DNA of 64,000 nucleotides, from positions 1 to 64,000 of the forward strand of contig JBBIMP010000018.1 of assembly GCA_037444305.1 (NCBI GenBank). The letters run 5' to 3'. Below are positions 1 through 14,558 of this stretch, one piece after another. The DNA comes from Acidobacteriota bacterium (GTDB taxonomy: Bacteria > Acidobacteriota > UBA6911). The position numbers and the translations under genes are program-made. The notes below the pieces were generated by a model. It ran no database searches. It was not told where the DNA came from and saw only the letters and a program-made list of their open reading frames with translations. How positions within the stretch are numbered: position 1 is the stretch's first letter; each line of letters begins with the position of its first letter.

Positions 1-574
1 CCAACCCCGGATTTTGTCGCGGCATGGCGCGACAAGAATCCTTAATTTGTTGGGCAGCGTCCTGGGTGTCGCGCAAAGGAAGGTCGTGCTGGGGATGCGA
101 CTCGACCTCCAGCGATAGCCCCAGCTTATGAAGATCTTCTCTCGACTTGGGACTGACGAAGCGCCGCGCCGAGCCAAGGTACACCGCGACCGGCTTTTGC
201 TGCGCGACTAGGTTTCGGACATTCTCAAGCGTTCCGCGGCTCTTTCCGTCCCAAAGCATCAGGCCATAGGAGGCATCATTGGCCATCTGTTTGTCTTTCG
301 CGGAATAGAGTTCAAACCCACGCGCTCCGCTCGGTGGGTTGACGAGGCAAACCTTCCAGTGGCCGACGTTATTGCGAACGGATCCGGCTATCGCGTAAAC
401 GATTACTCGCTCGTAGTCCCGATCTGCCAAATGCTGCTGCAGAGCGCGATCGGCGCCATTGGCGTCGCCGACAAAGAACCATAGGCCTCGGTCAATGAGG
501 TCGTTGAGTTTAGACCTGATGCTGTCGTTGAGCCGAGCGATCCGTCGTGAACCACCGAGAAATACCGCTTCCAT
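1..574 (-). CDS. SLOG-superfamily (DprA/Smf/LOG-like Rossmann) protein. N-terminal ~190 aa; the gene runs off the window start.
   Basis: The reverse-complement ORF starts at ATG 574..572 and has no stop before position 1. Translation: MEAVFLGGSRRIARLNDSIRSKLNDLIDRGLWFFVGDANGADRALQQHLADRDYERVIVYAIAG... The GGS..(x)..VGDANGAD..(x)..VIVYA pattern is typical of SLOG/DprA-like Rossmann folds. Its ATG overlaps the stop of the upstream PRTase (ggcTGAtcATG). Confidence 0.45.
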   Translation of the reverse strand, partial: MEAVFLGGSRRIARLNDSIRSKLNDLIDRGLWFFVGDANGADRALQQHLADRDYERVIVYAIAGSVRNNVGHWKVCLVNPPSGARGFELYSAKDKQMANDASYGLMLWDGKSRGTLENVRNLVAQQKPVAVYLGSARRFVSPKSREDLHKLGLSLEVESHPQHDLPLRDTQDAAQQIKDSCRAMPRQNPGL

Positions 575-576
575 GA

Positions 577-1178
577 TCAGCCCCGAGTTTTTGTCAACGC
601 AAGGGCGAAAACCGCGGAAACGCCCCCGGATTCCTTGAGGAGACGAGCGAGTGCATTCATCGTAGCGCCGGACTGGTAGAGGTCATCGAGAAGCAAAACC
701 CTTCGGCCCTTCAACCCTTCGCCCTCGATCGCGTGCACTCCTTGAGCAATTCAACGCGCTCCGCATAGTCGGCGTTCTTGAGTTCGGGCGTTGCCTTCGT
801 CTTCCGCACGCTTGTCTTGTCCACTGGCAGATCCAGCAGCCTTCCGAGTTCATCGGCGATCTGGTATAGCGGCTGGACTGCTCGACTCTTACTGGGCGAC
901 GCGGGAACGATGATATCGATTCCGGGGTTCCAGCCACGAACGAAGTCACAGGCAGCCTGGGCAATGGGTGTGACAGTCGATTGATCACCTCGGTACTTGA
1001 GCCTGTAGAACAGCTCTCCGAGCTCCGTGCGAGTGCTCTCGAACTGGGGATGTCCGTACTCGTTGTACCCGATGAACTCACTGCTGGTGACGTGGCGATC
1101 CAGAACACGGCCATCATCCCATGTCCCATGCAACGGTCTCGGATTCAGTTGCATCTTGTCCTCAGCTACGCTGCCCAA
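577..1178 (-). pseudogene. ComF/GntX-type phosphoribosyltransferase (PRTase), split by a frameshift in a gaaggg repeat tract
   Basis: The N-terminal ORF (1178..711) contains IDIIVPASPSKSRAVQPLYQIADELGRLL, matching the ComF-type motif D-x-IVPVP...RG-FNQ. After a frame change near 700-745, the C-terminal half reads KGRRVLLLDDLYQSGATMNALARLLKESGG, the PRPP-binding loop typical of type I PRTases (VLLVDD..TG.T). The two frames overlap within the repeat gagggcgaagggttgaagggccgaagggtt. Confidence 0.6.
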
Positions 1179-1246
1179 CGGGAAGCATCAGCTGCGGCGC
1201 GCGCTTTGCGCCGTCGACTGGATGCTGTTGTTAGCCGGGCTCTCTC

Positions 1247-1459
1247 TCACAGCAGCTTCCGGAATTGCTCTGGAGTGAGCCCAGCGTCGCGGGCGATTCC
1301 ACCCATCGTCAGGGCATTCACAGGATTGTGCCTTGGGACTGTGAGAATTCTGACCCCGTCGGACATGACGACATGTTTCCCCTGACGGATGATCCGAAAG
1401 CCCGCTTTCTCAAGTGCACGAGCTGCCTCCAGGTGATTGATGCCCGGTATCTTTGGCAC
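1247..1459 (-). CDS. hicA: HicA-family mRNA interferase toxin
   Basis: 70 aa: MPKIPGINHLEAARALEKAGFRIIRQGKHVVMSDGVRILTVPRHNP... This is a YcfA/HicA-like fold with a ..GKH..h....tvP.H.. pattern, and it sits immediately downstream of hicB. Confidence 0.78.
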   Translation of the reverse strand: MPKIPGINHLEAARALEKAGFRIIRQGKHVVMSDGVRILTVPRHNPVNALTMGGIARDAGLTPEQFRKLL

Positions 1460-1462
1460 GAG

Positions 1463-1660
1463 TCAGCCCGCGACCTCGATTTCTCGGATCACAGCATCTC
1501 TCAGGAGTTCGTCGCGCGCTTCGAGATATTCCTTGATGGCCTCTTGGATGTTGGCTAGCGCCTCATCCTCAGTGGCGCCCTGGGACCAACATCCTGGGAG
1601 TCCAGGAACAGATACACTGTAGCCCTCGTCAGTCTCATGCAAAGCTATTTTATACCTCAT
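1463..1660 (-). CDS. hicB: HicB-family antitoxin (short UPF0150 form)
   Basis: 65 aa: MRYKIALHETDEGYSVSVPGLPGCWSQGATEDEALANIQEAIKEYLE. This is the classic HicB/UPF0150 signature. There is a 4-bp gap to hicA. Confidence 0.75.
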   Translation of the reverse strand: MRYKIALHETDEGYSVSVPGLPGCWSQGATEDEALANIQEAIKEYLEARDELLRDAVIREIEVAG

Positions 1661-1879
1661 GTTGCCTCTTGCCTAAAGTATACACCCGCGCCCCTCCGGC
1701 TAACGCGAGCTGCGGATCAGCGGCGGGCCGCGTAGCGGACCGGCCGCTGCATCGCGTTGTTAGCGGCCCCTTGTCATCCTACCGCACGGCCCCCAGGAAA
1801 GGTAGTAGAGTCCGCGTGATAGCTGTGGCGGGCGTATCCGGCGCTCTAGCAAGGCGTCACAGGCCTCTCCAGGGTGCCG

Positions 1880-1908
1880 TTGACAAATCAGTCAACGCCA
1901 GCTAGGAT
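1880..1908 (+). promoter_or_regulatory. Near-consensus sigma70 promoter with an embedded palindrome, upstream of the MTase
   Basis: TTGACA (1880-1885), a 17-nt spacer, then TAGGAT (1903-1908), with the ATG at 1915. The inverted repeat TTGAC-N6-GTCAA (1880-1895) overlaps the -35 region and is a likely operator for the N-terminal XRE HTH of the downstream protein. Confidence 0.55.
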
Positions 1909-1914
1909 GGCACC

Positions 1915-4440
1915 ATGACTTTCGGGGCCTTCATTCGCGACCGTCGAGCAGCGCTCGGGATATCTCTCCGGGTCGCTGCCCAGAAGCTCGGGGTCGACGC
2001 AGCTCATCTGTCCCGTGTCGAAGCCGGTAAGGTACCCGTCTCTGAACAACTGATCCATCGCCTGGCGGGGGTTCTCGAATGCGAGGCAGACGAGCTGCTG
2101 CTCCTAGCCGGACGCCTTCCAGAATCCATCCGTGCCATGGTGGTGCAGCAGCCGTACCGCGCGACGGCTGCGCTGAGAACAATGGCCGAGATGTGCGTGG
2201 CTGAACCAGGCGTGCCCTACGGAGAGCCGCTCTTCGCCGAGCGAGGAGTGCGCGTCATCGAAGACGGCTTTCCCTTCGAGGAGATCAGCGAGATCGCTGA
2301 GGTCGAGAGCTGGCGCAAGGAGATTTACAGGCCCATCTACCACGTCCACAAGTGGTGGGCGCAGCGGTTGGGTTCCGTGTTCCGAGCGGCAATTCTCGGC
2401 GCGGCAGCCCCCAAGGGTTCATCGGTCTTGGACCTCTTCTACGAGCCGGTTCGTCTACCGGGCGTCGTGGTTTTCGACCCGTTCATGGGGAGCGGGACCA
2501 CAGTCGGCGAGGCGCGGAAGCTCGGTTGCACTGTTATCGGGCGCGACATTAACCCAGTGGCGTACCGTGCGGTTCGCGTCGCACTCGGCCCTGTGGACAG
2601 GGGAAGGGTGCACGAGCATTTCCGGAAGCTCGAATCCGGTGTCGGCAAAGAGATCAAGAAGCTGTACAGTTCGGTTGACAGTGACAGAGAGCTATGCGAC
2701 GTCCTCTACTTCTTCTGGGTTAAGGTCGTTCCGTGTCCTAAGTGCCAGGCGAAGGTCGACCTCTTCTCGAGCTACGTTTTCGCGACGCACGCGTACAAAA
2801 AGCAGAACCCGGAGGCCAAAATCATCTGTCCAGAGTGCGGCGATGTTTTCTCTGGGCGACACGACGACACCCAGGTCGCATGCCGATGTGGCGCTCGCTT
2901 CAATCCGCAAGAGGGGCCGGCCAAGCGAACCACAGCAATTTGCCGCCTGTGCGGGCACGAATTCCCGATTGCGAAGACTGCGAAAAGCGCCGGGAGGCCT
3001 CCGGATCACCGGCCCTACGCGAAGTTAGTGCTTCGGAAGGACGGAAGCAAGGAATACCTTGGGATCACGGACGGCGACCTGTCTGCGTTCATGGCCGCAA
3101 GGAACCGCCTGAGAGACTTCGATCCACCGCTTCCTAGTGTACCCATCGGCGACGGCCACAACACGCGCCAGATCCTGAACTACGGGTATCGGCACTGGCA
3201 CGAGTTGTTCAATGAGCGCCAGCTCCTGGCCCTGACGATGCTAGCAGGCGCGATTCGGGACATCCCGGAGAACTCGGCTCGGGATGCGCTCGCCGTACTC
3301 TTCTCGGGCATACTTGAGTTCAACAACATGTTCGCATCGTACAAGGGAGAAGGCACCGGCGCGGTGCGGCATATGTTCTCACACCACATCCTCAAGCCAG
3401 AGCGGACGCCCATCGAGGCGAACATCTGGGGGACGCCGCGGAGTTCGGGTGCCTTCTCGACGCTGTACGAATCCCGGTTGCTTCGCGCGCTGGATTACCG
3501 CGACGCCCCCTTCGAACTCGCGGTTGAGTACAGAGGCCCACGCAAGACAGGAAGGAAGGTAGTGGGTGTCAGCCCGCCGATCGGTGGGCCGATAATAGAG
3601 CGGTACCCGAAAGGCGGTCTTAAGCCCGGCGCTACATACCTCTCTTGCGGGGACTCGTCTGCCACGGACCTCCCCGACAAGAGCGTTGACCTCGTGATAA
3701 CGGACCCGCCTTTTTTTGACAACGTCCACTACTCTGAGCTCGCCGATTTCTTCTTCGTCTGGCAACAGCTTTACTTCGGTGACGGTTCATTCAGTGGCGC
3801 CTGTACCACCCGCCGGGACGCCGAAGTTCAGGACGTCGAAGCCGGTGCGTTCGCAGACAAGCTCGGCAAGGTCTTTGCGGAATGCCACCGTGTGCTGCGA
3901 GACGAAGGCGTCCTCGTCTTCAGCTATCACCACTCGCGCGAGGATGGGTGGGTTGCGGTCGCGCAGGCCGTTTTGGGTGCCGGCTTCAACATAGTTCAGA
4001 GCCAGCCCGTCAAGGCCGAGATGTCGGTCGCCGCTCCGAAAAGTCAGGCGAAGGAGTCTATCGACCTCGACGTACTGATCGTCTGCCGCAAACGAAAATC
4101 CGACCCGCGGCCGCGGCGTGCTGATGAGGGAGTTTTGCAACGAGCTGTCGCGAGCGCCGAGGAAAAGGTTAGACGGTTCAACAGCGTGGGCCGACATCTC
4201 TCTCGAAACGATGTGCGCGTCATTTTGCTAAGTCAGGTCCTGGTGGAACTGAGCGTGGGGAGGACGGCGAGCGAGGTGGGGGTTTCGCTCAAGGCCCTAC
4301 TGCCGAAGACCCGCAGCATCATCGAGAGGTCATGGAAGGACCAGAACGTGCGGGAACCATCGGGTCCCGTTGCGCCGCAGCCAGGGGCGGTGCAGCGTGA
4401 ATTGTGGGAAACACTGCCTACACGCGGAACGGGAGCCTAA
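1915..4440 (+). CDS. XRE-HTH::DUF1156 (COG1743) N6-adenine DNA methyltransferase with a Zn-ribbon
   Basis: 841 aa. N-terminus: GISLRVAAQKLGVDAAHLSRVEAG (XRE-type HTH). DUF1156 N-terminal signature: IEDGFPFEEISEIAEVESWRKEIYRPIYHVHKWWAQR. Motif I: VVFDPFMGSGTTVGEA. Cys clusters CPKCQ...CPECG / CRLCGHEF form the Zn-ribbon. Motif IV: DLVITDPPFFDNVHYSELADFF. Confidence 0.85.
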   Translation: MTFGAFIRDRRAALGISLRVAAQKLGVDAAHLSRVEAGKVPVSEQLIHRLAGVLECEADELLLLAGRLPESIRAMVVQQPYRATAALRTMAEMCVAEPGVPYGEPLFAERGVRVIEDGFPFEEISEIAEVESWRKEIYRPIYHVHKWWAQRLGSVFRAAILGAAAPKGSSVLDLFYEPVRLPGVVVFDPFMGSGTTVGEARKLGCTVIGRDINPVAYRAVRVALGPVDRGRVHEHFRKLESGVGKEIKKLYSSVDSDRELCDVLYFFWVKVVPCPKCQAKVDLFSSYVFATHAYKKQNPEAKIICPECGDVFSGRHDDTQVACRCGARFNPQEGPAKRTTAICRLCGHEFPIAKTAKSAGRPPDHRPYAKLVLRKDGSKEYLGITDGDLSAFMAARNRLRDFDPPLPSVPIGDGHNTRQILNYGYRHWHELFNERQLLALTMLAGAIRDIPENSARDALAVLFSGILEFNNMFASYKGEGTGAVRHMFSHHILKPERTPIEANIWGTPRSSGAFSTLYESRLLRALDYRDAPFELAVEYRGPRKTGRKVVGVSPPIGGPIIERYPKGGLKPGATYLSCGDSSATDLPDKSVDLVITDPPFFDNVHYSELADFFFVWQQLYFGDGSFSGACTTRRDAEVQDVEAGAFADKLGKVFAECHRVLRDEGVLVFSYHHSREDGWVAVAQAVLGAGFNIVQSQPVKAEMSVAAPKSQAKESIDLDVLIVCRKRKSDPRPRRADEGVLQRAVASAEEKVRRFNSVGRHLSRNDVRVILLSQVLVELSVGRTASEVGVSLKALLPKTRSIIERSWKDQNVREPSGPVAPQPGAVQRELWETLPTRGTGA

Positions 4441-4933
4441 ACCGACCGCGCGGGCGCGTCCTAGCCTCGCGATCCGGTGTGGGAAACGGGTCCACGAGCT
4501 GGGTAATGGACCAGCCCTCCGGCGCGTCGGAGCGGCGTCGATAGCAATAGAACCTTCGGGTGGTGCCTTCTGAGACGGACCGACGCAGCCTGTATGCAAG
4601 CTGCAGATCCGGCTCCTTACGCGGAACGTCCTCATCTGGGTGGATCAGGATAGGCAAGCCATCGAACTCCCGAGCACCGAGGGGGTTGGCGAAGATGAGC
4701 ATAGGTCGAGCCCGGTCGGCTCCGTCGCCATACGTCCCGAGTCCGATGCGTTTCTGGCGCTCGCCTGTGATGCTCAGGTACAGTTCAAAGTCCTCGTTCA
4801 GGGCGTTGCCATCCACCAGGCACAAGGCCGTCAGGACAACAGTCTGCGCGTCGTCGGGGGCGCACTCCAAGCAAACGAATAGGTAGAAGCCGCGGATGTC
4901 GAGGGCTGCACCCGCTGCATCATAGACGCGCAC
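4418..4933 (-). CDS. Hypothetical protein, probably the C-terminal part of a frameshifted nuclease-like gene
   Basis: 171-aa ORF that overlaps the upstream ORF 4831..5301 by about 100 bp in another frame. Convergent with, and abutting, the 3' end of the MTase gene. Confidence 0.3.
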   Translation of the reverse strand: MRVYDAAGAALDIRGFYLFVCLECAPDDAQTVVLTALCLVDGNALNEDFELYLSITGERQKRIGLGTYGDGADRARPMLIFANPLGAREFDGLPILIHPDEDVPRKEPDLQLAYRLRRSVSEGTTRRFYCYRRRSDAPEGWSITQLVDPFPTPDREARTRPRGRFRLPFRV

Positions 4934-5301
4934 ACGCCCGCAGGGGGCGTAGTGTTGTAATCGAGTCCAGAGCCTCGGGCGACACCGCCCTGCGCCGTCC
5001 GCTCCAGTTTCTTGACCTCAATGCCCACGATGCGGTTGATGTCGGTTGTTCGGTGCTTGAGGTCCATTCCTTCGCACATGCGAGGCCGGTACAGGACCAT
5101 GTCGGGGGTGATGAGCGGCCCGGTCGCCCTCGCGCACGAGATCGCTTCGATGCCTGTGAGCACTTCTGTGACAAGGTACTCGTCGAACGGATCGTCTTGG
5201 GTGTTTCGTTTGTCACGAAGTCTGAACGGTACCGGTCGTCCTGCGCTATCGAAAAACCGGTGGCGCAGTGCCAGAAAGGCGAATGTGGGGAGGTCGATCA
5301 T
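4831..5301 (-). CDS. Hypothetical PD-(D/E)xK-like protein; candidate restriction endonuclease, N-terminal part
   Basis: 156 aa containing ..TPDMVLY.. followed about 25 aa later by ..INRIVGIEVKK.. (a PD...E-x-K arrangement). Frame overlap with ORF 4418..4933 suggests a single disrupted gene. Confidence 0.3.
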   Translation of the reverse strand: MIDLPTFAFLALRHRFFDSAGRPVPFRLRDKRNTQDDPFDEYLVTEVLTGIEAISCARATGPLITPDMVLYRPRMCEGMDLKHRTTDINRIVGIEVKKLERTAQGGVARGSGLDYNTTPPAGVCASMMQRVQPSTSAASTYSFAWSAPPTTRRLLS

Positions 5302-5590
5302 GTCCTTGCCTCACTGGTTACGGGGAATGTCTCATCAGGTGCCGCTTATATTATGCGGGTCTCGATAGCTGGATAGGCCGCCAGTCGGCACCCGCTCAAA
5401 CCATCGAGAATATATCTCTCATAGCACAATGTTGTTTAAAGTCAAACGGTTATGCGGAAGCTGATGGGCGGCATATCCAGCTATGCTGCGAGTTCCGCCC
5501 GCTTAACTGGATAACAAGGGCGAAGTTTTGCTGAATCCCACTGCTCCCTTGGCGGACGGGTTCTGTATACTCCCCCTCGCCGCCACAAAC

Positions 5591-6682
5591 TCACATGCCG
5601 GTATCCAGCGGACTCCGAACCTCTCGGCCGCCACGATTCAGCACATGTGTGCAGATCATCGTCGTGCTCACGTCGCTGTGCCCTAGAAGCTCCTGAATCG
5701 TCCGGATGTCGTACCCTGCCTCCAGCAAATGCGTCGCAAAAGAATGACGCAGCGAATGACAGCTTGCCGGCTTCGCAATTCGCGCCTGGAGGGCTGCCCT
5801 GCGGACCGCTTTCTGCAATACCGACTCGTGAAGATGATGCCTGCGCTTCCTCCCCGACGAGGAATCCCAATAATGCCGGGTCGCCGGAAATACCCACTGC
5901 CAGCTCCATTCCCACGGAGCCTTGGGATACTTTCGCTCGATTGCCTGAGGCAACTCGACGCTCCCCGCCCCGCGTCGAAGATCCTCCCCATGCCTTTGGC
6001 GCACTCTTTCGATGTGCGCGGCCAGCGGTTCCGAAACTTTGCCCGGGAGAAGCGTCACCCGATCCTTGTTCCCCTTGCCGTCACGAACCGTAATTTCACT
6101 CCGGGCAAAATCCACATCCTTGATGCGCAGCCGACAGCATTCGAGCAGTCGCAAGCCGGCACCATAGAGCAGGGAGGCCATGATCCATTCCACCCCTCGC
6201 AGGTTGCCCAATAGGGCTGTTACTTCCGAGCGCGAAAGCACTACAGGCAGATGAACAGGCCGCTTCGCCCTCACGATGCCGGCGACCCACTCGAGGTCCG
6301 CCTGCAGCACCTCCCGGTAAAGAAATACCAGCGCGCATAACGCCTGGTTCTGCGTGGACGCGCTGACCCTGCCCTTGACCGCAAGATGGGTCAGAAACTG
6401 CGAGATCTCTGCCTCGCCCATCTCAGCCGGGTGCCGCTTGCCGTGAAAAAGAATGAATCGGCGAATCCAGCCGACGTATGACTTGGCCGTTCTGCGGCTG
6501 TAGCTGCGCCGCAAGATCTCGTCGCGGACACGGTCCAGCAGTTTCGGTTTTTGCGGGCAGAGAGAGACATTCTCACACACGAATGCGGCGGCCCGAGCAC
6601 AGCAGAATAGAAAATCGGCGGCAACATCTGATGGCTTCGCATCGGCGGTCACCAGAGGTTCAACGATCGATTCTTGGAGCAT
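5591..6682 (-). CDS. intI: Integron integrase IntI (tyrosine recombinase)
   Basis: Contains [39 protein letters not shown] (R-H-R-Y catalytic region). Also contains the IntI-specific additional domain [50 protein letters not shown], which aligns with IntI1 ALERKYPRAGHSWPWFWVF...[22 protein letters not shown]. The [12 protein letters not shown] box is also present. Confidence 0.9.
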
Positions 6683-7101
6683 TTCACCTCATAAGTTGCC
6701 CGAACGCCAGAGATATTTCAGCAGCGCGCCGGCAAATCCAATAACCGGGTCGTATCCCCCGCGAAAAACAGCAACGGGCTTTTCCTGCTTGAAACAAGAT
6801 GGCGCCGGTTGCGGCGTAAATCGCCGGCAATAGTCGTTGGCGGCAGGCGAAATCAAGGACTTCCCGGCGCTGGCGGCGCATGCGGCGACAAGGATTAGGA
6901 GAGAAGCGATGCCCCAGCGCTGGGCTGTTTCCCTTCGCGGGGACAGCGCGATCAGAAAGGCTCGCGGACGCATGCCTTGGCGCTGAACGAACCCGTGCTC
7001 CCGTTCAGTGTCTTGGGATCGAGATCCACCGTGTGCGTTTTGTAGGCGCTGCCGATTCAACCGGTGGCACGGGCGCCGCATGCGCGATCCAATTGTCCCA
7101 C

Positions 7102-7146
7102 TTGACGAGCTCTGTGACTCCTAGTAGCATGAGCGTGTGAGTCACA
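7102..7146 (+). promoter_or_regulatory. Promoter with a dyad operator upstream of, and overlapping, the vapB start
   Basis: TTGACG (7102-7107), a 17-nt spacer, then TAGCAT (7125-7130). The 8-bp inverted repeat TGTGACTC (7113-7120) / GAGTCACA (7139-7146) brackets the -10 and the GTG start, typical of RHH antitoxin autoregulation. Confidence 0.5.
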
Positions 7147-7364
7147 GACTGCAGGTCCTTATTCCCGAAGAATTGGATGCCCGTGTGCGCAAAGCGTCGC
7201 AGCGTTGCCGTATTTCCAAGGGGGAGTGGGTGCGACGGGCCATCGAACGCACCCTGGCCGAAGACGGGGCAACAGCCGAACCCCTCTCTCAACTGGCCTC
7301 ATTGGAGGCGCCCACGGCCGACATTGACCAGATGCTGGAGGAAATCGAAACGGGGCGCACGTGA
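7137..7364 (+). CDS. vapB: Ribbon-helix-helix (CopG/VapB-type) antitoxin
   Basis: 75 aa with a GTG start: ..HRLQVLIPEELDARVRKASQRCRISKGEWVRRAIERTL. This is an RHH beta-strand plus two helices. Its stop overlaps the vapC start (7361). Confidence 0.72.
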   Translation: MSHRLQVLIPEELDARVRKASQRCRISKGEWVRRAIERTLAEDGATAEPLSQLASLEAPTADIDQMLEEIETGRT

Positions 7365-7765
7365 GGGTTTTCATCGACTCCAACATTCCGATGTATGTCG
7401 CCGGCCGCGAACATCCTCACCGAGAACCGGCGCGCCGCTTATTGGAGAAGGTCCGCGCCGCCGAGCTGGAAGCATGCACCAGCACGGAAGTTCTGCAGGA
7501 AATCCTTTACCGCTACACTGCCTTGCAACGGCTGGACCTGGCACGACGGGTGTATGAGCTCTTCGTGCTGATTTGTCCGGTGATCTATCCCGTAACCCTG
7601 GCCGATACCGACCGCGCGAAGCAACTGGTATGCGGCGGAGGCAGCATCGGGGTTCGCGATGCGATTCACGCCGCCGTCATGCTGAACAACGACGTCCACA
7701 ACGTTGCGACGTTCGATGCAGCCTTCGACCTGATCCCGGGAGTGCGCCGCCTGCCTCTGGATTGA
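7361..7765 (+). CDS. vapC: PIN-domain toxin VapC
   Basis: 134 aa beginning MRVFIDSNIPMY (PIN N-terminal acidic residue), with ..DAIHAAVMLNNDVHNVATFDAAFD (C-terminal conserved Asp). Confidence 0.82.
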   Translation: MRVFIDSNIPMYVAGREHPHREPARRLLEKVRAAELEACTSTEVLQEILYRYTALQRLDLARRVYELFVLICPVIYPVTLADTDRAKQLVCGGGSIGVRDAIHAAVMLNNDVHNVATFDAAFDLIPGVRRLPLD

Positions 7766-7864
7766 AGGGCAAAGATCTTCCCCACCTGCTGAGGCAATGC
7801 ATGATAGATCCGGATTCAAGGGACTATCCGAGGAGCGGAGTTTCGATCGCAGGCTTTTGGCGGA

Positions 7865-8917
7865 TCAGCGGCCTGCCGCCGCGAGCTGGCCGCAGGCGGC
7901 GGCGATGTCGTGGCCGCCGCTGTAACGGCGGTGCGTGGCCAGCCCCGCCCGGTGCAGAACTTCGCGGAATGCGGATTCCGTCTCGCGAGCCGTCCGCCGG
8001 AATTCGTCCCGCCCGCCGGCGTCGGCGTTGTAGGGGACGATGCTGATCCGCGGCCGCACGCCCGTGGCGCGCACGAAATCCCGGCCGAGCCGCGCCAGCG
8101 CCGCAGCGTGCTCCGGGCTGTCGTTGACCCCTTCGAGAAGCGTCACGGCCCACATCGGCGCGATGCGCGTTTTGCGCGAATGATCGGCAACGGCGGCCAT
8201 TACCTGTTCGAGCGGGTGGGCGCGGTCGATCGGCATCAATCGGCGGCGGACCTCAGGCAGTGCGCTGCCGATCGAAATGCCAAGACGAACCTTGGGCGCC
8301 TCTGCGGCCAGCTGGCGAATGCCCTCGGGCAATCCCACGGTGCAGACTGTGATGGCTTTGGCGTTTACTGCCATCGTGCTCGGATTGCAGGCGACGGCGA
8401 TCGCCTGGAGCACTGCATCGAGATTGGCCAGCGGTTCCCCCATCCCCTGGAAGACAATCCCATGAATGCGTTCGCCGCGGCGGGGGTCCAGTCCGCCTCG
8501 GACAATCCGCAACTGTTCGATGATTTCCCACGCTTCCAGGTTCCGGTGCAGCCCAAGCCTGCCGGTGGCGCAGAAGGAACAACCGAGCCCGCAGCCGGCC
8601 TGCGAACTGACGCACACGGAGAAGCGGCCGGGACGGTCGAGCGGAATGCGGACGGCCTCCACGGTGCCGCCCCCCGGAACTTCCAGGATATATTTGATGA
8701 ACGGATCGACCCCACTCCGTTGATTGGCGCACACCGTCAGCTTCGGGAGCGATCCCGCAGCGGCGGCCGCGTCAATGACCGATTGCTTTACGCGCCGGAC
8801 AAACTCCAGGCCGCCTCCGCGGTGGATGCCGCTCGCTATTCTCCGGGCGTCGGTCAGGGAAATGCCGGGAATGATTTGAACCAGTTCATCCGGAGTCAGT
8901 GCCTGCAGAGCAATCAT
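7865..8917 (-). CDS. rlmN: Radical-SAM 23S rRNA/tRNA m2A methyltransferase RlmN
   Basis: 350 aa with the radical-SAM motif CSFCATG, plus GMGEPLAN and ..ISIVPYN.. regions, giving RlmN/Cfr family topology. Confidence 0.85.
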   Translation of the reverse strand: MIALQALTPDELVQIIPGISLTDARRIASGIHRGGGLEFVRRVKQSVIDAAAAAGSLPKLTVCANQRSGVDPFIKYILEVPGGGTVEAVRIPLDRPGRFSVCVSSQAGCGLGCSFCATGRLGLHRNLEAWEIIEQLRIVRGGLDPRRGERIHGIVFQGMGEPLANLDAVLQAIAVACNPSTMAVNAKAITVCTVGLPEGIRQLAAEAPKVRLGISIGSALPEVRRRLMPIDRAHPLEQVMAAVADHSRKTRIAPMWAVTLLEGVNDSPEHAAALARLGRDFVRATGVRPRISIVPYNADAGGRDEFRRTARETESAFREVLHRAGLATHRRYSGGHDIAAACGQLAAAGR

Positions 8918-9174: not shown

Positions 9175-10353
9175 CTAAAAGGCGAACAGGTAGTTGAGTT
9201 TGACGGCGAGGGAACGGTTCCGGATGTTGAACACGCCGCCCCACTCGTCGGTCTCATTGTACACGATGAAGAAATCGCTCCCCGGCCGGACGATCCAGTT
9301 GAAGCGGATATTGCTGGAGAACAGCCGGCTGTCGGTGTTGTACTGAAAGAGCGTCAGCAGAGCCATGTCGTTGCCGAAGGCAACCTGGAAGCGCGTGGAC
9401 ACCAGCTGAGTCGTGAACTTGCCCGCGGGGAGATCCACCCAGTTCACTTCGTAGCGGCCCGAGAGATCGAAATACCGGTTGATCCGGTAGCTGGTGTCGG
9501 CGGAGATTCGATCGCGCTCCCCGTTCCAGAACCCGCCCGTGTCGTAGGCCAGATTGAGGCGCACGTGCCTCCGGCGGAATGTGTCCAGACGTGCGGAGAA
9601 CGTGTTGAAGCGGTAGACTCCCGGCTGGATGGCCACTCCTGTCCTCAGCGCGAAAGGCTCCTCGATCTGCTCGAGCTGATTGACGACGGCTAAGGTCAGG
9701 GCGTCTCCGCTCTCGAACGTCGTGCCGACCGTGAGTTCACGGGTGCGGGTCTCGAGTATGTTCCCCTGGTCGGTCACGTACTGCAGCGAAGCGGAAAAAT
9801 CGAACTTGCGCACCCACTCCAGGCCCGGCCGCGGGCTGTAGCGCAGCTCGCCGGCGTTCTGCCGGCTGCCCGGCCGCCGCACGAAGCCGATCCCCGGCTG
9901 AAAGTTCTCCCCGGCGTCCATATACCGGTAATCGGCCCCCCAGCGGTCGGTGTCGTAGGCGAAGCGCAGATAGGCGGAGTGCGCGCCCTCTTCGATGTCA
10001 GGCGCGTCCACCTTTGCCAGGAAGCCCTCGAGCGCCCAGGCCTGCTTGAAGAGAAAGCCGGCATCCGCTCCGAAGACTCGATTGAAGCCGCCGCCTCCTT
10101 CGCGGTTGGTGAACAGCGCACCGATGCTGGAACGGCTCTCGATGTCGCGGCGGACGCGCAGGACGGTGAAGTTGTCGGCTGCAAAGCCGTGCTCCTCGCC
10201 CGTCTGAATGTTCATCGCGCCGATGCTGTAGGGCCCCTGGCGCCCGGAAAGGCGGGCGCCGGCGCGTATGGGAATGATTCGCCCGTTGGGCGAAAGGCCG
10301 ATGCGCCGGGTGAAGACGAGGTCGTTCTGGCGGGGCACGCCGAACTGGAACAT
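9175..10353 (-). pseudogene. DUF5916-family outer-membrane protein, C-terminal fragment (beta-barrel ending ..NYLFAF)
   Basis: 392-aa ORF ending with the outer-membrane C-terminal Phe signature. Separated from the upstream CBM9-like fragment by a frame break at 10353-10420. Confidence 0.55.
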
Positions 10354-11222: not shown

Positions 11223-14200
11223 TCAGGGTGCGGCGGAGTGGCGCGCATGGCAGAGGGTGTTGACCAGCCGAAGCTCCTCGACCGTCCGGCATGGCGTTGC
11301 CGGCAGGCGAGGACTTGCCACCAGCAGGGTGAGACATCGCGCGCGGGAAATGGCCACGTTCAACCGGTTCCTGCTGAAGAGGAATTCAATATCCCGGGGC
11401 AGATCCTCTGCGCTCGAGGTCGTCATCGAGACGATAACCACCTCCGCCTCCTGCCCCTGGAATTTGTCGACGGTGCCGACACGGGCGCCGGCCGGCAGAA
11501 CCGACCGCAGGCGGTTGACCTGCACATTGTAGGGGGCCACGACGAGAATGTTCTCGGGCCGCATGGGGTGCACGGCGCCGTCCGTGTCGGTGAAGGCCTG
11601 CAGCAGCAGGTTGGAGTAGACCTCGCGCACTACCTGAGCCTCCTCCTCGGATTTCTGCGAGCAGCCGGCGTGATCCACCCCGATGAAGCGGATTCCTGTC
11701 GGGCGCAACTCGGGGTGCGCGCCCCGCTTGAGGAGGAGTCTGCGATTCTGGTTCTTTGCCTCCGGGTGGAGCCGCCCTTCATACACGGCCTCGGATATGA
11801 AACGGCAGACATCGGCGTGCATGCGCCACGTGGTGGGCAGAAAAATCCCCCGCTCGGGCGGGATCGTCGCCGCGTCGCGGAGCAGGTACTCGAGAACAGA
11901 CATCCCCGACTCGCCGGGATGCACGCCCTGGATCGGCTGGCCGAGCTGCATCTGGTCTCCAACCAGCACGATGTTTTTGGCGCTGGTTCCCATAGCCACG
12001 AGGTTTGCCAGCGACACCTGGCCCGCCTCGTCCACGAACAGGCAGTCGAGCCTGCCGTCCATGTCCGGGTGCGCAAACAGCCAAGCCGAGCCGGCGAACA
12101 GGTCGGCGGAGAAATCGAATCTTTCGGTGCGGGTTTCGTTGGCAATCTGCCGCCCTGCGAAGAACGATTCGCTGTTCATTTCGGTCGCCTTCTTGATGCC
12201 GCGAAACGTGAGCCCGGTTTCGTCGGCCCGCCTCTCCACCGCGTGCAGCAGATTGTGGATCGCCTTGTGGGAGTTCGAGGCGACGCCGACCTTCTTTCCC
12301 TGCCGAATCAGCTCCACGATGATGCGGGATGAGACATATGTTTTGCCGGCGCCGGGCGGCCCCTGGATGAGCAGGCAGCTGTTCCTGAGATTGGCGACGG
12401 CGCGGGTGGACTCGATGACAAGGTCCTCCTTCCCGCTGATGATGGGGAGACCGTGCTTGAGGCCCTTGATTGCAGGCAGTTGCCGGAGCAGCAGCGATCG
12501 CGCGGCCGGATACTTCCCATCGCCCGCCGCCATGGAATCGGCGAAGCGGCCCAGGGCATCGTGCAGCACCCTCGTATCTATGGGCCCGGAGGGTATTAGG
12601 GAAAGTTCCGCCGGCAGCGATCCGGCCGAAGCGCCCCGTTTCAACTTCAGGGTGCCTCCTTCCAGGTCCAGCGCCACGATTGTGCCGGCAGGTTCCAACG
12701 TTGCTGCAACCAGACAGCGGTTGCCCGGTCCGAGTTTTGAGTCCTGCGGCGGAAAGCGATACCCGGCGACGATCGAGCGCTTCTCCGTCCGCTGTGGAAT
12801 GCCCGGATCCAGGCCGAGTGCGCCGATGCACTCGTAGTCCTCCACCAGGTCCTCGGGCGTGCTCTCCTGGCGGTCGAACATGGCCCACCATGCCGGCTTG
12901 GCCTCCCGGCGGTGAAAACCGAGCAGGTGCACGACGGTTTCGCGCGCAACCTTCTCCTCCGGAGGGCTGCCCTTCATGAGTTTCTTCCGGCGCGCGGCGA
13001 TTTCCTCCTCCGCCTGGGTTCGGGCAGCGGCTTTTTCCTCGTCCTGGTCCTCCGGCGCCTCGAACCAGGGGGTGCCGTCCGGCCGCAGATCGAGCAGCCA
13101 CTCGCGAAGCAGGTGCGTGGAACGGCAGTCTGCCCGGTTGTAATCCCGGATCTGCTCCAGCAGGCTGTCGTCGTGCGTCAATCGCCACTGCTCGTAAACC
13201 ACGATGCTGTCGCCGGCGCTTGTCACCTCGCCCTCTCGCTTTTTCATGTAGAAAACCTCGAGGTCCTTCAGCGAATAACCCCGCGCGGAAGCCTGGAGGC
13301 CTTCGCGTACGACCTTGTAGAGGTCGACCAGCTTGCGGGCCCGCAGCAGGTGGTCGACTTCCGCCTCGCGCGTGCCGTAGCGCGAGGCCAGCCGTTTGAG
13401 CGCGTTCTCCTCGTAGTGGTTGTAGTGATAGATGTGCGCGCCCGGATGCGCCTCGAGATGCTCCATGAAAAAGTCGACTGCCTGCCGGAACGCCGCCATC
13501 TCCTCGTCGTGGTTGTGGGCCCAGAATTCGCGGAAGACCGGCTTCCGGCTCGCAAACCGGTAAACGCCGAACAGGTATTCCAGGCCCTCGCCGAAGAAAG
13601 GATCCCCTTCGATGTCGAAGAACAGGTCGGCGGCATCGGGTCTGGGCAGCCTTTCGAAGCCTCTGCCCTCCTTGGGCGGGAGGAGCTGCCAGGAGTCCTG
13701 GCCGGTGTCGCGCCTGTTCGTCTGCAGGCGCGCCTGGGTGCGCAGTCGCGTCAGGCTCTCCTGGCCGATCCCGTCAATGCGCCGCGAATCGGGCGTGGAG
13801 GCCAGTGTCCGGGCTGTGGCGATGCCGGCCTCTATCAGCCTGCGGATCTGCGACTGGCGGATGTTGGCGACGAGCGTCAGGTGGTCGTCGTCCTCCCACC
13901 GGCGGCAACAAAGATCGCGCCACCGGCAGAGGTCGCAGTAGCGGCAGCGGCGCGGGTATGAATATTCTGGGGGCGATGCGGCGAATTCCTCGAAGCGGCG
14001 CTGAGCCTCCAGGTGGTAGTGGCGGAAGTCGGCGAAAAGGAAAGCCGCCTCGCTGCCGTCGCCCAGCACCAGGTGCATCGAGCGGGGTGTGAGCCCCTGC
14101 ATCGCCTCCAGCATGTCGGAGTAGCAGCAGAGCTGGATTACGCGGGCGGCCGAAGGCGCTCGGGCCAGCTTTGTGTCGACCGCTTCGTAGCTGAATCTCC

Positions 14201-14558
14201 CAAGCTTGGAAGGGGTGTCGACACGCCGGAGGAAGTCGGCGTAGCCGAACCACGGGTCCTTTTGCAGCGCGGCCTGGTAGATGACGTCGGCGCCTGCGGC
14301 CATTGCCTTGCGGGTCTGGGCGGTCCTTTCTGCCAGGGAGCCATCCGTTGGGATTTCGACCGCCTCCAGGTCTTCGGACAGCAGCTTTGCGAGGTAGGCT
14401 TTTTCGTGTTCCAGCCCTTTCCTGCGGAGGAGTTCGATGCCGGCGTCCTCCCCGGCCTGAGGAAGAGGTTGCTCGCGATGGCGAAGGTCCAGCCATGCGC
14501 AGTGCTCACACTCGAGGAAGCTCAGCAGGGCCGAGGGCGCGTGCATGTGCGGCATCAT
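11223..14558 (-). CDS. Cas4/RecB-like PD-(D/E)xK nuclease (Fe-S) + RNase H-like domain + SF1 (Upf1/Dna2-like) helicase fusion; TM0106 family, Nhi-like
   Basis: 1111 aa. N-terminal Cys cluster CEHCAW...CRYCDLCRWRDLCC (Cas4-type 4Fe-4S). Middle region ..LFFDIEGDPF..EYLFG (RNase H-like, TM0106/YprB). Helicase motifs: LIQGPPGAGKTY (Walker A), LFVDEAGQ (Walker B), VLVGDQMQL, and DKFQGQEAEVVIVS..NRLNVAISRAR (motifs V and VI). Confidence 0.85.
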   Translation of the reverse strand: MMPHMHAPSALLSFLECEHCAWLDLRHREQPLPQAGEDAGIELLRRKGLEHEKAYLAKLLSEDLEAVEIPTDGSLAERTAQTRKAMAAGADVIYQAALQKDPWFGYADFLRRVDTPSKLGRFSYEAVDTKLARAPSAARVIQLCCYSDMLEAMQGLTPRSMHLVLGDGSEAAFLFADFRHYHLEAQRRFEEFAASPPEYSYPRRCRYCDLCRWRDLCCRRWEDDDHLTLVANIRQSQIRRLIEAGIATARTLASTPDSRRIDGIGQESLTRLRTQARLQTNRRDTGQDSWQLLPPKEGRGFERLPRPDAADLFFDIEGDPFFGEGLEYLFGVYRFASRKPVFREFWAHNHDEEMAAFRQAVDFFMEHLEAHPGAHIYHYNHYEENALKRLASRYGTREAEVDHLLRARKLVDLYKVVREGLQASARGYSLKDLEVFYMKKREGEVTSAGDSIVVYEQWRLTHDDSLLEQIRDYNRADCRSTHLLREWLLDLRPDGTPWFEAPEDQDEEKAAARTQAEEEIAARRKKLMKGSPPEEKVARETVVHLLGFHRREAKPAWWAMFDRQESTPEDLVEDYECIGALGLDPGIPQRTEKRSIVAGYRFPPQDSKLGPGNRCLVAATLEPAGTIVALDLEGGTLKLKRGASAGSLPAELSLIPSGPIDTRVLHDALGRFADSMAAGDGKYPAARSLLLRQLPAIKGLKHGLPIISGKEDLVIESTRAVANLRNSCLLIQGPPGAGKTYVSSRIIVELIRQGKKVGVASNSHKAIHNLLHAVERRADETGLTFRGIKKATEMNSESFFAGRQIANETRTERFDFSADLFAGSAWLFAHPDMDGRLDCLFVDEAGQVSLANLVAMGTSAKNIVLVGDQMQLGQPIQGVHPGESGMSVLEYLLRDAATIPPERGIFLPTTWRMHADVCRFISEAVYEGRLHPEAKNQNRRLLLKRGAHPELRPTGIRFIGVDHAGCSQKSEEEAQVVREVYSNLLLQAFTDTDGAVHPMRPENILVVAPYNVQVNRLRSVLPAGARVGTVDKFQGQEAEVVIVSMTTSSAEDLPRDIEFLFSRNRLNVAISRARCLTLLVASPRLPATPCRTVEELRLVNTLCHARHSAAP

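What the first reader, a model, noticed from the sequence alone, without database searches (positions are those of the whole stretch)
1880..5301. Solitary XRE-HTH::DUF1156 adenine methylase with a self-operator promoter, plus a convergent PD-(D/E)xK-like gene
DUF1156 (COG1743) methylases are normally the methylase component of a predicted multi-gene defence system, found together with DUF499 and DUF3780 or helicase partners (established knowledge). Here those partners are absent. The methylase instead carries an N-terminal XRE HTH, and its near-consensus promoter contains a TTGAC-N6-GTCAA palindrome over the -35. That is a C-protein-like autoregulatory arrangement, now built into the methylase itself. 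Immediately downstream and convergent is a roughly 290-aa ORF pair with a PD..(E)VKK pattern, split by a frameshift. This could be a new minimal restriction-modification-like pair, or a methylase left orphaned after its nuclease decayed.
Basis: partly seen in the sequence, partly recalled or inferred. Interest (0 to 1): 0.75.

Follow-up and report, generated by a model that had tools for sequence, protein, structure and literature searches.

The report
Self-regulated restriction-modification integron cassette, nuclease broken
This is an ordinary two-gene restriction-modification system of an unannotated family, carried as a single integron gene cassette: its methylase switches its own promoter off, and its nuclease gene here is broken by a one-base deletion.

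Summary
ORF 1915-4440 (+) is an 841-aa XRE-HTH::N6_N4 amino-methyltransferase. Its TTGACA-17-TAGGAT promoter carries a perfect CGTTGAC-N6-GTCAACG palindrome. Downstream is a convergent gene of about 294 aa, split by a frameshift.

- **The methylase is only a distant relative of DUF1156/Hma methylases.** It scores below both curated cut-offs.
- **It always pairs with the convergent gene.** That was so in 80 of 80 species-level loci.
- **The partner is an unannotated EcoRV-like PD-(D/E)xK restriction endonuclease.** Some relatives carry a true C protein instead of the fused HTH.
- **The palindrome tracks the fused HTH.** It sits at the methylase promoter in 21/26 HTH-bearing loci and 0/54 HTH-less loci. 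This points to SsoII/EcoRII-style autorepression, a known mechanism, here on a probably leaderless mRNA.

The pair appears to be one roughly 3.7-kb integron cassette. It lies next to an integron integrase (5591-6682) and ends in an attC site (1696-1768). The same cassette with its attC recurs in other integrons.

The nuclease here lost one C from a C6 tract. The integrase has lost its catalytic tyrosine (Y344C). What remains is an orphaned, self-regulated methylase in a decaying integron.

The parts
1696..1768 (-). attC recombination site that closes the R-M cassette. On the - strand it reads R'' GCTAAC ... CAGCGG/CCGCTG stem ... R' GTTAGCC (1705->1699).
   Evidence: Covariance model R1 gives 49.4 bits, E 8.6e-10. 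A homologous attC follows the methylase promoter at the same place in L006 and L085. It folds as an imperfect hairpin. The Logan contig L002 ends exactly at 1699.
1878..1897 (.). Operator palindrome CGTTGAC-AAATCA-GTCAACG, overlapping the -35 hexamer.
   Evidence: Sequence read directly. Conserved at the same place in 21/26 HTH-bearing loci and 0/54 HTH-less loci.
1880..1908 (+). Methylase promoter TTGACA-17-TAGGAT. The -10 hexamer ends 6 nt before the ATG and there is no Shine-Dalgarno sequence, so the mRNA is probably leaderless.
   Evidence: Promoter scan, 10/12. The same -10-to-start spacing of 6-8 nt is seen in homologues.
1915..4440 (+). HTH::amino-methyltransferase, 841 aa: XRE HTH at aa 3-61, motif I DPFMGSGTT, Cys-rich Zn-ribbon-like insert, motif IV DPPF. 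It appears intact.
   Evidence: Pfam, PADLOC and NCBIfam scans. More than 4900 homologues; the top 120 are full length at 60-90% identity.
4418..5301 (-). Restriction endonuclease pseudogene (EcoRV-like PD-(D/E)xK family, 294 aa when intact). Its 3' end overlaps the methylase 3' end by 23 nt.
4943..4947 (-). Frameshift site: a C5 run where intact relatives have C6 (codons for T-P-P-C).
   Evidence: Three-frame translation. Nucleotide comparison with L086/L087/L005/L006. The same sequence is present in the Logan contig L002.
5350..5510 (-). Long imperfect hairpin between the intI stop and the nuclease start, with GTTATCC/GTTAAGC core-like motifs at 5515-5501. It may be the attI region. The 5' boundary of the cassette is not resolved.
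   Evidence: 31-nt inverted repeat arms. Fold dG -29.1, z -4.4. Partial alignment with L085.
5591..6682 (-). Integron integrase IntI, transcribed toward the cassettes (Treponema denticola-type layout). The catalytic Tyr is replaced by Cys (Y344C, codon 5651-5653).
   Evidence: TIGR02249, 457 bits against a cut-off of 265. Y is present in all 15 aligned homologues and C only here. Layout precedent: PMC3607928.
1171..1239 (-). Second attC site, closing the neighbouring HicB/HicA cassette (about 1179-1704).
   Evidence: Model R1 gives 75.9 bits, but this sequence was one of the four used to build the model. HicA/HicB Pfam hits.

Best explanation
The locus is a Type II restriction-modification module packaged as one integron gene cassette of roughly 3.7 kb.

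**Methylase (M).** M is a large beta-class amino-methyltransferase, probably N6-adenine. Its N-terminal XRE helix-turn-helix most likely binds, as a dimer, the CGTTGAC-N6-GTCAACG operator that overlaps the -35 box of its own promoter. That would repress its own, probably leaderless, transcript once enough M is present. This is antitoxin-type autorepression, as in M.SsoII and M.EcoRII.

**Nuclease (R).** R is an EcoRV-like PD-(D/E)xK endonuclease encoded convergently, with 3' ends overlapping by 23 nt. Within the cassette it lies in the sense direction of the array and has no recognisable promoter of its own. It would therefore depend on transcription entering from upstream.

**State of this copy.** R is inactivated by loss of one C from a C6 tract, and the adjacent integron integrase has lost its catalytic tyrosine. 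What remains is an orphan, self-limiting DNA methylase in a frozen, decaying cassette array.

**Shown:** domain content, gene linkage, nuclease fold, co-occurrence of operator and HTH, attC/IntI context, and the lesions.

**Inferred:** DNA binding and repression, the leaderless start, the methylated base, R's dependence on upstream transcription, and that the frameshift is biological rather than an assembly error.
For: **M**
- HTH_3/HTH_31 plus PF01555.
- The best PADLOC match is a Type II MTase model.

**R**
- An intact 294-299-aa convergent partner is present in L003 and L004.
- An M homologue is adjacent in 80/80 loci found through R, across many bacterial phyla and one archaeon.
- E...PD...ExK residues are invariant.
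- Three relatives (L046, L056, L059) have a small HTH gene ending just upstream of R. The one tested, in L056, matches C.AhdI at E 8.8e-19. C proteins are specific to R-M systems.

**Operator**
- The palindrome lies at the -35 box in 21/26 HTH-fused loci and 0/54 HTH-less loci, p = 6.5e-15.
- A -10 box lies 6-8 nt before the start codon throughout.
- The mechanism has precedent (PMC3874152).

**Cassette**
- IntI scores 457 bits on TIGR02249.
- attC model hits occur only in integron-like arrays across 982 kb searched.
- L006 has five co-oriented attCs, two of which bracket the pair.
- The attC after the M promoter is conserved in the window, L085 and L006.
- L085 shows the same order: intI, R, M, attC.
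- Only M has a promoter-like site inside the L006 cassette.

**Lesions:**
Against: - No biochemical or methylome data exist, so specificity, the methylated base and cleavage are all unknown.
- The cassette's 5' boundary and attI are not identified, and there is no canonical GTT at the junction with the conserved cassette sequence.
- Hairpin z-scores for the attC sites are modest in this GC-rich DNA.
- The covariance model was built from only four sites. Two of the window/L006 hits are training sequences.
- The frameshift lies in a homopolymer. The two assemblies that share it (the MAG and Logan contig SRR11582151) may derive from the same reads, so an artefact or a minority allele is not excluded.
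Confidence: 0.75

Rival explanations
1. The system is an active R-M system. On this view the apparent frameshift is an assembly or consensus error, a minority allele, or a slippage-prone (phase-variable) C tract, and full-length R is made.
For: There is a single lesion, in a homopolymer (C5 against C6 in L086/L087). All invariant catalytic residues are retained on both sides of it. M is intact. The two assemblies that agree are 100% identical over 3681 bp and may share reads.
Against: Two different assemblers give the same C5. A 5-6 nt tract is short for phase variation. Decay of R is common in this family: 9 of 80 loci carry frameshifts or stops. The closest intI-adjacent relative, L085, has a dead R with two different lesions. 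Neighbouring genes are also damaged: IntI Y344C and a split PRTase gene.
Confidence: 0.17
2. M is the methylase of a DUF1156/Hma-type multi-gene defence system whose DUF499/DUF3780/helicase partners have been lost or lie outside the window.
For: There is distant homology: PADLOC DUF1156_MTase 2e-24 and HmaB 5e-24, and NCBIfam DUF1156_antiphage E 1.7e-33. A sub-threshold DUF1156 Pfam match lies at aa 119-170. The window begins at a contig end, so nothing to the left can be seen.
Against: M is below both curated cut-offs: 17.2 < 24 bits and 116 < 1000 bits. No PF06634 appears among the 120 closest homologues. The REase is the partner in 80/80 loci. No DUF499/DUF3780 gene was called in the gene tables of L001, L003 or L004. 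The pair is bounded by an attC site, with unrelated cassettes beyond it.
Confidence: 0.03
3. The palindrome is not an HTH operator. It would instead be two copies of the system's own recognition site (GTTGAC and GTCAAC both fit GTYRAC), so that promoter methylation controls M expression as in CfrBI-type regulation.
Against: The palindrome tracks the HTH domain, not the R-M pair: 21/26 against 0/54. Half-sites drift to TTGAT/ATCAA in some loci, while position and spacing are kept. GTYRAC sites are not depleted in the cassette or the window.
Confidence: 0.05

Closest known systems
SsoII/Ecl18kI/EcoRII/MspI/ScrFI-type R-M systems, in which the methyltransferase carries an N-terminal HTH and represses its own promoter
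   Same: An N-terminal HTH is fused to the MTase. A palindromic operator overlaps the MTase promoter. The expected role is antitoxin-like autorepression (PMC3874152 and PMC2760811).
   Different: To my knowledge those MTases are C5-cytosine enzymes of about 380-480 aa. In Ecl18kI (PMC3874152), and to my knowledge in SsoII, the R and M genes are divergent, so the one operator also influences R. Here the MTase is an 841-aa beta-class amino-MTase and the genes are convergent with overlapping 3' ends. No operator lies upstream of R, and the M mRNA is probably leaderless.
C-protein-controlled Type II R-M systems (C.AhdI, C.BclI, C.PvuII, C.Esp1396I)
   Same: The HTH is of the XRE class. Leaderless transcripts from an operator-embedded promoter are known for C genes (my own knowledge). 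Some members of this same R-M family do use a true C gene upstream of R (L046, L056, L059).
   Different: The window has no separate C gene. The fused HTH is only weakly similar to C.AhdI (E 0.008). There is a single palindrome rather than the two-operator C-box arrangement, and it precedes M, not R.
EcoRV-lineage Type IIP endonucleases (SwaI, EcoRV, NlaIV, HincII, ThaI, BglI)
   Different: There is no detectable sequence similarity: no Pfam, NCBIfam or PDB sequence hit. The protein is longer, at 294 aa. RefSeq annotates the family as hypothetical. Its specificity is unknown.
DUF1156 / HmaB / MADS-type defence methylases
   Same: The overall MTase architecture is shared, with distant homology over the C-terminal catalytic half.
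   Different: It falls below the family thresholds. It has an N-terminal HTH. Its partner is a single small REase rather than DUF499/DUF3780/helicase proteins.
Defence and toxin-antitoxin cassettes of sedentary chromosomal integrons
   Same: A cassette bounded by attC, next to IntI and among TA cassettes (HicAB). Integrons are known to be enriched in R-M, TA and defence genes (bioRxiv 10.1101/2024.07.02.601686).
   Different: At about 3.7 kb the cassette is unusually large, with two genes, one of them in antisense orientation with its own regulated promoter. The integron has the T. denticola-type co-directional intI (PMC3607928) and a catalytically dead integrase.

Membership tests
Type II restriction-modification system | A separate DNA methyltransferase with SAM-binding and catalytic motifs | tested here: met
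   PF01555 at E 5e-15; motif I DPFMGSGTT and motif IV DPPF are present.
Type II restriction-modification system | A separate endonuclease with a nuclease fold and catalytic residues | tested here: met
Type II restriction-modification system | Tight, conserved linkage of the R and M genes | tested here: met
   80/80 loci.
Type II restriction-modification system | Matching sequence specificity of cleavage and methylation | not testable with these tools
   Needs a methylome and cleavage assays.
DUF1156 (PF06634) / DUF1156_antiphage (NF042963) methylases of Hma-type systems | Score above the curated family threshold | tested here: not met
   Pfam 17.2 bits against 24. NCBIfam 115.8 bits against 1000.
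DUF1156 (PF06634) / DUF1156_antiphage (NF042963) methylases of Hma-type systems | Neighbouring DUF499 / DUF3780 / helicase partner genes | tested here: not met
   None in the gene tables of L001, L003 or L004. The REase is the partner in 80/80 loci. The remaining loci were not scanned explicitly for DUF499.
MTase-HTH autoregulated R-M systems (SsoII-like) | An N-terminal HTH domain fused to the MTase | tested here: met
   HTH_31 at E 1.5e-11, aa 3-61.
MTase-HTH autoregulated R-M systems (SsoII-like) | A palindromic operator overlapping the MTase promoter | tested here: met
   1878-1897 overlaps the -35 box. It co-occurs with the HTH in 21/26 loci against 0/54.
MTase-HTH autoregulated R-M systems (SsoII-like) | Demonstrated binding and repression | not testable with these tools
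   Needs EMSA or footprinting and reporter fusions.
MTase-HTH autoregulated R-M systems (SsoII-like) | Homology to the SsoII-like C5-cytosine MTase family | tested here: not met
   The catalytic domain is N6_N4_Mtase (an amino-MTase), with no C5 MTase hit. It works like this group but is not a member of that protein family.
Integron gene cassette | An integron integrase (with the IntI-specific insert) adjacent | tested here: met
   TIGR02249, 457 bits against a cut-off of 265. Homologues are named integron integrase.
Integron gene cassette | An attC site at the cassette's 3' end, within an array of co-oriented attC sites | tested here: met
   Model R1 hits at 1696-1768 and 1171-1239. L006 has an array of five attCs that bracket the pair. 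The attC is conserved with the cassette in three loci. IntegronFinder's own model was not available.
Integron gene cassette | A defined 5' junction (G/TT core) with attI or the preceding attC | tested here: inconclusive
   L006 has GTTAC immediately before the conserved CGGCACC block. The window and L085 have ATAAG/ATAA there. GTTATCC/GTTAAGC motifs lie about 150 nt further upstream, beyond a hairpin.
Integron gene cassette | A catalytically competent integrase | tested here: not met
   Y344C at the invariant catalytic tyrosine.

The most novel reading that the evidence does not exclude
The cassette layout may be an adaptation that lets an integron store and deploy a toxic R-M system safely. 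The antidote M faces against the array and carries its own autoregulated, leaderless promoter, so it is made wherever the cassette sits. The toxin R is promoterless and in the sense direction, so it is made only as far as transcription enters from the integron promoter or upstream cassettes. It would be largely silent deep in the array and strongly expressed in first position. First-position over-expression of R, opposed by convergent M transcription, would then select for R-null mutants. That would explain why both intI-adjacent copies seen (the window and L085) carry independently broken R genes beside intact M genes.
Probability: 0.2. Interest if true: 0.65.

Novelty: new member of a known kind. 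Interest (0 to 1): 0.38.

Why it matters
- **It resolves an apparent anomaly.** A defence methylase without its partners turns out to be a conventional Type II R-M system.
- **It assigns a probable function to a widespread hypothetical protein family.** The family has 887 database relatives, no Pfam or NCBIfam model, and is annotated 'hypothetical' in RefSeq.
- **It extends MTase-borne HTH autoregulation, to my knowledge characterised only in C5-cytosine methylases, to a large amino-methyltransferase family.** The operator is conserved from Proteobacteria to a Thermoplasmata archaeon, which makes a clean test case for operator/HTH co-evolution.
- **It is a concrete example of a complete, self-regulated R-M system moving as a single integron cassette.** This fits the recent view of integrons as defence-gene banks.
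- **It raises a testable idea.** Position in the cassette array might set the toxin/antidote balance.

None of this overturns current understanding.

Tried and rejected
- **Strict attC scans.** Two home-made scans (RYYYAAC...GTTRRRY with forced AAC/GTT pairing in the MFE fold) missed the real sites and returned only coding-region false positives. I replaced them with a regex on the conserved stem and a covariance model.
- **MAFFT alignment of all eight attCs.** It mis-registered the 3' ends (A3) and was not used for modelling.
- **Rfam on 1-8000.** Nothing was found.
- **Sequence searches with the nuclease.** There were no hits in Pfam, NCBIfam, PADLOC or PDB sequences, and no homologues in the plasmid or phage collections.
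- **Operator upstream of R.** I looked for the M operator or any conserved palindrome upstream of R in 23 loci and found none. Direct HTH control of R is therefore not supported.
- **A repeat near 7860-7879.** It resembles part of the attC but lies inside the rlmN coding sequence and was not hit by the model. I dismissed it as chance.
- **GTYRAC as the recognition site.** I considered this but found no depletion signal.


Full report
**Where the window comes from.** The window is the first 64 kb of contig CAZIEJ010000014.1 of MAG GCA_964538715.1. Position 1 is the contig end.

**What is there**

- ORF 1915-4440 (+) encodes 841 aa. It has an XRE-type HTH (HTH_31 E 1.5e-11, HTH_3 E 4.7e-8, aa 3-61) and an N6_N4_Mtase domain (PF01555, E 5e-15).
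- The methyltransferase motifs run in the beta-class order: motif I DPFMGSGTT near aa 190, a Cys-rich insert, then motif IV DPPF near aa 600.
- Upstream lies TTGACA (1880-1885), 17 nt, TAGGAT (1903-1908). This is the best sigma-70-like match in 1100-7200.
- The -35 hexamer sits inside a perfect palindrome, CGTTGAC-AAATCA-GTCAACG (1878-1897).
- The -10 hexamer ends 6 nt before the ATG and there is no Shine-Dalgarno sequence. The transcript is therefore probably leaderless.
- Downstream and convergent lie ORFs 4831-5301 and 4418-4933 (-).

**The methylase family**

- The DUF1156 Pfam match is sub-threshold (17.2 bits against 24).
- NCBIfam's DUF1156_antiphage model gives 115.8 bits against a cut-off of 1000.
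- PADLOC places it nearest a generic Type II MTase model. DUF1156_MTase, HmaB and PglX follow at about 1e-24.
- More than 4900 relatives exist. The 120 best are 60-90% identical, nearly all HTH+MTase fusions, and none carries PF06634.

It is a distant cousin of the Hma/DUF1156 methylases, not a member.

**The partner gene**

- Homologous loci L003 (Tectomicrobia) and L004 carry an intact convergent ORF of 294 or 299 aa. It overlaps the methylase's 3' end by 15-23 nt.
- The window's two ORFs align to its two halves. The junction falls in T-T-P-P-C-G.
- The window reads ACG CCC CC- TGC where L086/L087 read ACG CCC CCC TGC. That is a one-base deletion in a C6 tract, at 4943-4947.
- The family has 887 database relatives with no Pfam domain, and no Pfam, NCBIfam, PADLOC or PDB sequence hits. 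RefSeq calls a Streptomyces member 'hypothetical protein'.
- Thirty-five diverse members share invariant E41, P66-D67 and E95-V-K97.
- Foldseek is weak, but BglI and EcoRV are again on top.

**Linkage**

- A scan of one genome per species with the partner profile returned 80 loci. They come from many bacterial phyla and one Thermoplasmata archaeon, with Streptomyces and Nocardia isolates among them.
- A homologue of the methylase is immediately adjacent in all 80, either convergent or in tandem R->M order.
- Twenty-six of the 80 have the fused HTH.
- Three HTH-less loci (L046, L056, L059) instead carry a small HTH gene ending just upstream of R. In L056 it ends about 15 nt before R and matches C.AhdI (E 8.8e-19), C.BclI and C.Esp1396I.
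- That is a bona fide R-M controller protein in the classical C-R arrangement. It independently marks the 294-aa protein as a restriction endonuclease.
- This is a Type II R-M family that uses interchangeable regulatory formats.

**The operator**

- In HTH-bearing loci the sequence (T)GTTGAC-N4-GTCAAC(A) lies about 35-40 nt before the start codon. A TAnnAT-like box follows 6-8 nt before the start.
- The pattern TTGA[CT]-N6-[AG]TCAA is at the M promoter in 21/26 HTH loci, with near-matches in the other five. It is at the promoter in 0/54 HTH-less loci, Fisher p = 6.5e-15.
- No such site precedes R.
- The palindrome therefore co-evolves with the HTH, not with the R-M pair. This favours an HTH operator over a methylation switch.
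- Repression of its own promoter by an MTase-borne N-terminal HTH is an established regulatory class (EcoRII, SsoII, Ecl18kI, ScrFI; PMC3874152).
- The fused HTH is a generic XRE domain only weakly like C.AhdI (E 0.008).

- *Integrase.* ORF 5591-6682 (-) is an integron integrase (TIGR02249, 457 bits against a cut-off of 265). Its homologues are named integron integrase.
- *attC-like repeats.* On the - strand, repeats lie at 1696-1768 and 1171-1239. Their form is xxxxAAC, spacer, extrahelical G, CAGCGG...CCGCTG stem, spacer, GTTRRRY.
- *Model search.* I built a covariance model from four such sites and searched 982 kb. It hit only the following:
  - the two window sites;
  - five co-oriented sites in L006 (Gemmatimonadota), with a weak sixth;
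  - three sites in L026;
  - one site in L005/L003.
- *L006.* Two attCs bracket the pair exactly: attC 5890-5955, R 6001-6885, M 9385<-6863, attC 9529-9597.
- *Conservation of the attC.* The attC following the M promoter is conserved together with the promoter in the window, L085 and L006. That is expected if it belongs to the cassette.
- *L085.* This JGI metagenome contig (M 86% identical) repeats the order intI, R, M, attC.
- *L005.* It begins with the 3' end of an intI on the same strand as R.
- *Layout.* The integrase is transcribed toward the cassettes, which is the Treponema denticola-type layout (PMC3607928; 'inverted integrase group', PMC3575428).
- *Neighbouring cassettes.* The adjacent cassette (about 1179-1704) is HicB/HicA. 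Integrons are known to be enriched in R-M, TA and defence cassettes.
- *Promoters.* Inside the L006 cassette only M has a promoter-like site. In the window the conserved leader of R, about 70 nt long, shows none.

The 5' junction and attI are not resolved. A 160-nt hairpin (5350-5510; dG -29.1, z -4.4) separates intI from R.

**State of this copy**

- R carries the single-base deletion. Logan contig SRR11582151_12483 is 100% identical over 1699-5379, frameshift included, but it may derive from the same reads.
- L085's R has different lesions: a frameshift near aa 76 and a stop at Y175.
- Across the 80 loci, 9 have frameshifts or stops in R. Nuclease decay that leaves an orphan methylase is therefore recurrent in this family.
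- The window's IntI has Cys at the catalytic tyrosine (TTMI**C**THV; codon 5651-5653). Tyr is present in all 15 aligned homologues.
- The next cassette's PRTase-like gene is split.

The array looks frozen and decaying.

**Verdict.** This is a conventional Type II R-M system of an unannotated family. It uses the known methylase-HTH mode of autoregulation, is mobilised as an integron cassette, and here has its nuclease inactivated. It is a new member of a known kind and of modest interest. The main open idea is position-dependent expression of R inside integrons. I give that idea 0.2 probability.

Noticed in passing
window 5651-5653 (within intI 5591-6682, - strand): The integron integrase has Cys (TGC) at the catalytic tyrosine, reading TTMICTHV. 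All 15 aligned homologues have Tyr there. The integrase is predicted to be catalytically dead.
   Followed up: yes
window 5350-5510: A 160-nt imperfect hairpin (31-nt arms, AT-rich loop, dG -29, z -4.4) lies between the intI stop and the nuclease start. Its loop contains a promoter-like TAAACA-18-TATATT, and GTTATCC/GTTAAGC motifs lie just upstream. L085 seems to have a diverged hairpin at the same place. It could be attI, Pc or a terminator; this remains unexplained.
   Followed up: partly
window 1179-1704: A 526-bp HicB/HicA toxin-antitoxin cassette is flanked by two attC sites. A promoter-like TAGGCA-17-TAAAAT overlaps the hicB start.
   Followed up: partly
window 577-1154 and 2-574 (- strand): The next cassette encodes a PRTase-like protein that appears to be split by a frameshift: 711-1154 has no Pfam hit, and 577-738 carries the Pribosyltran motif. 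It is followed by a 191-aa ORF with no Pfam hit that runs off the contig end. This may be another decayed, possibly defence-related, cassette.
   Followed up: partly
window 7102-7765 (+ strand): An RHH antitoxin / PIN (VapC-like) toxin pair lies on the other side of intI. TTGACG-17-TAGCAT ends 6 nt before the GTG start, which is another probably leaderless arrangement.
   Followed up: no
window 1699 and 5379; locus L002: An independent short-contig assembly (Logan SRR11582151) of this region breaks exactly at the attC R' end (1699) and inside the hairpin (5379). That fits variable sequence context beyond the cassette in the sample.
   Followed up: no
L046 5675-5989, L056 5711-5986, L059 5747-5986: Members of the same R-M family in Terriglobia and Binatia lack the fused HTH. 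They carry a small HTH gene just upstream of R instead; the one tested, in L056, is a classical C protein (best PDB match C.AhdI). The regulatory module has been swapped within one R-M family.
   Followed up: yes
L085 4082-4964: The closest intI-adjacent relative (JGI 3300027900) also has a dead nuclease gene beside an intact methylase, with different lesions: a frameshift near aa 76 and a stop at Y175.
   Followed up: yes
L086 4049-5262 / L087 3814-5027: In another close relative with an intact nuclease, an IS110-family transposase gene lies just beyond a weak attC-like hit (23 bits) upstream of the nuclease gene.
   Followed up: no
window 1879-1896: Both operator half-sites (GTTGAC and GTCAAC) fit GTYRAC, the HincII/HindII recognition sequence, and HincII is among the structural neighbours of the nuclease. 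This is probably coincidence: the palindrome tracks the HTH, and there is no GTYRAC depletion.
   Followed up: partly
window 11223-14558 (- strand): A 1111-aa protein with RNase_H_2-like and AAA_11/AAA_12 (Dna2/Upf1-like) helicase domains lies about 7 kb away, beyond the housekeeping radical-SAM gene. It appears unrelated to the cassette.
   Followed up: no
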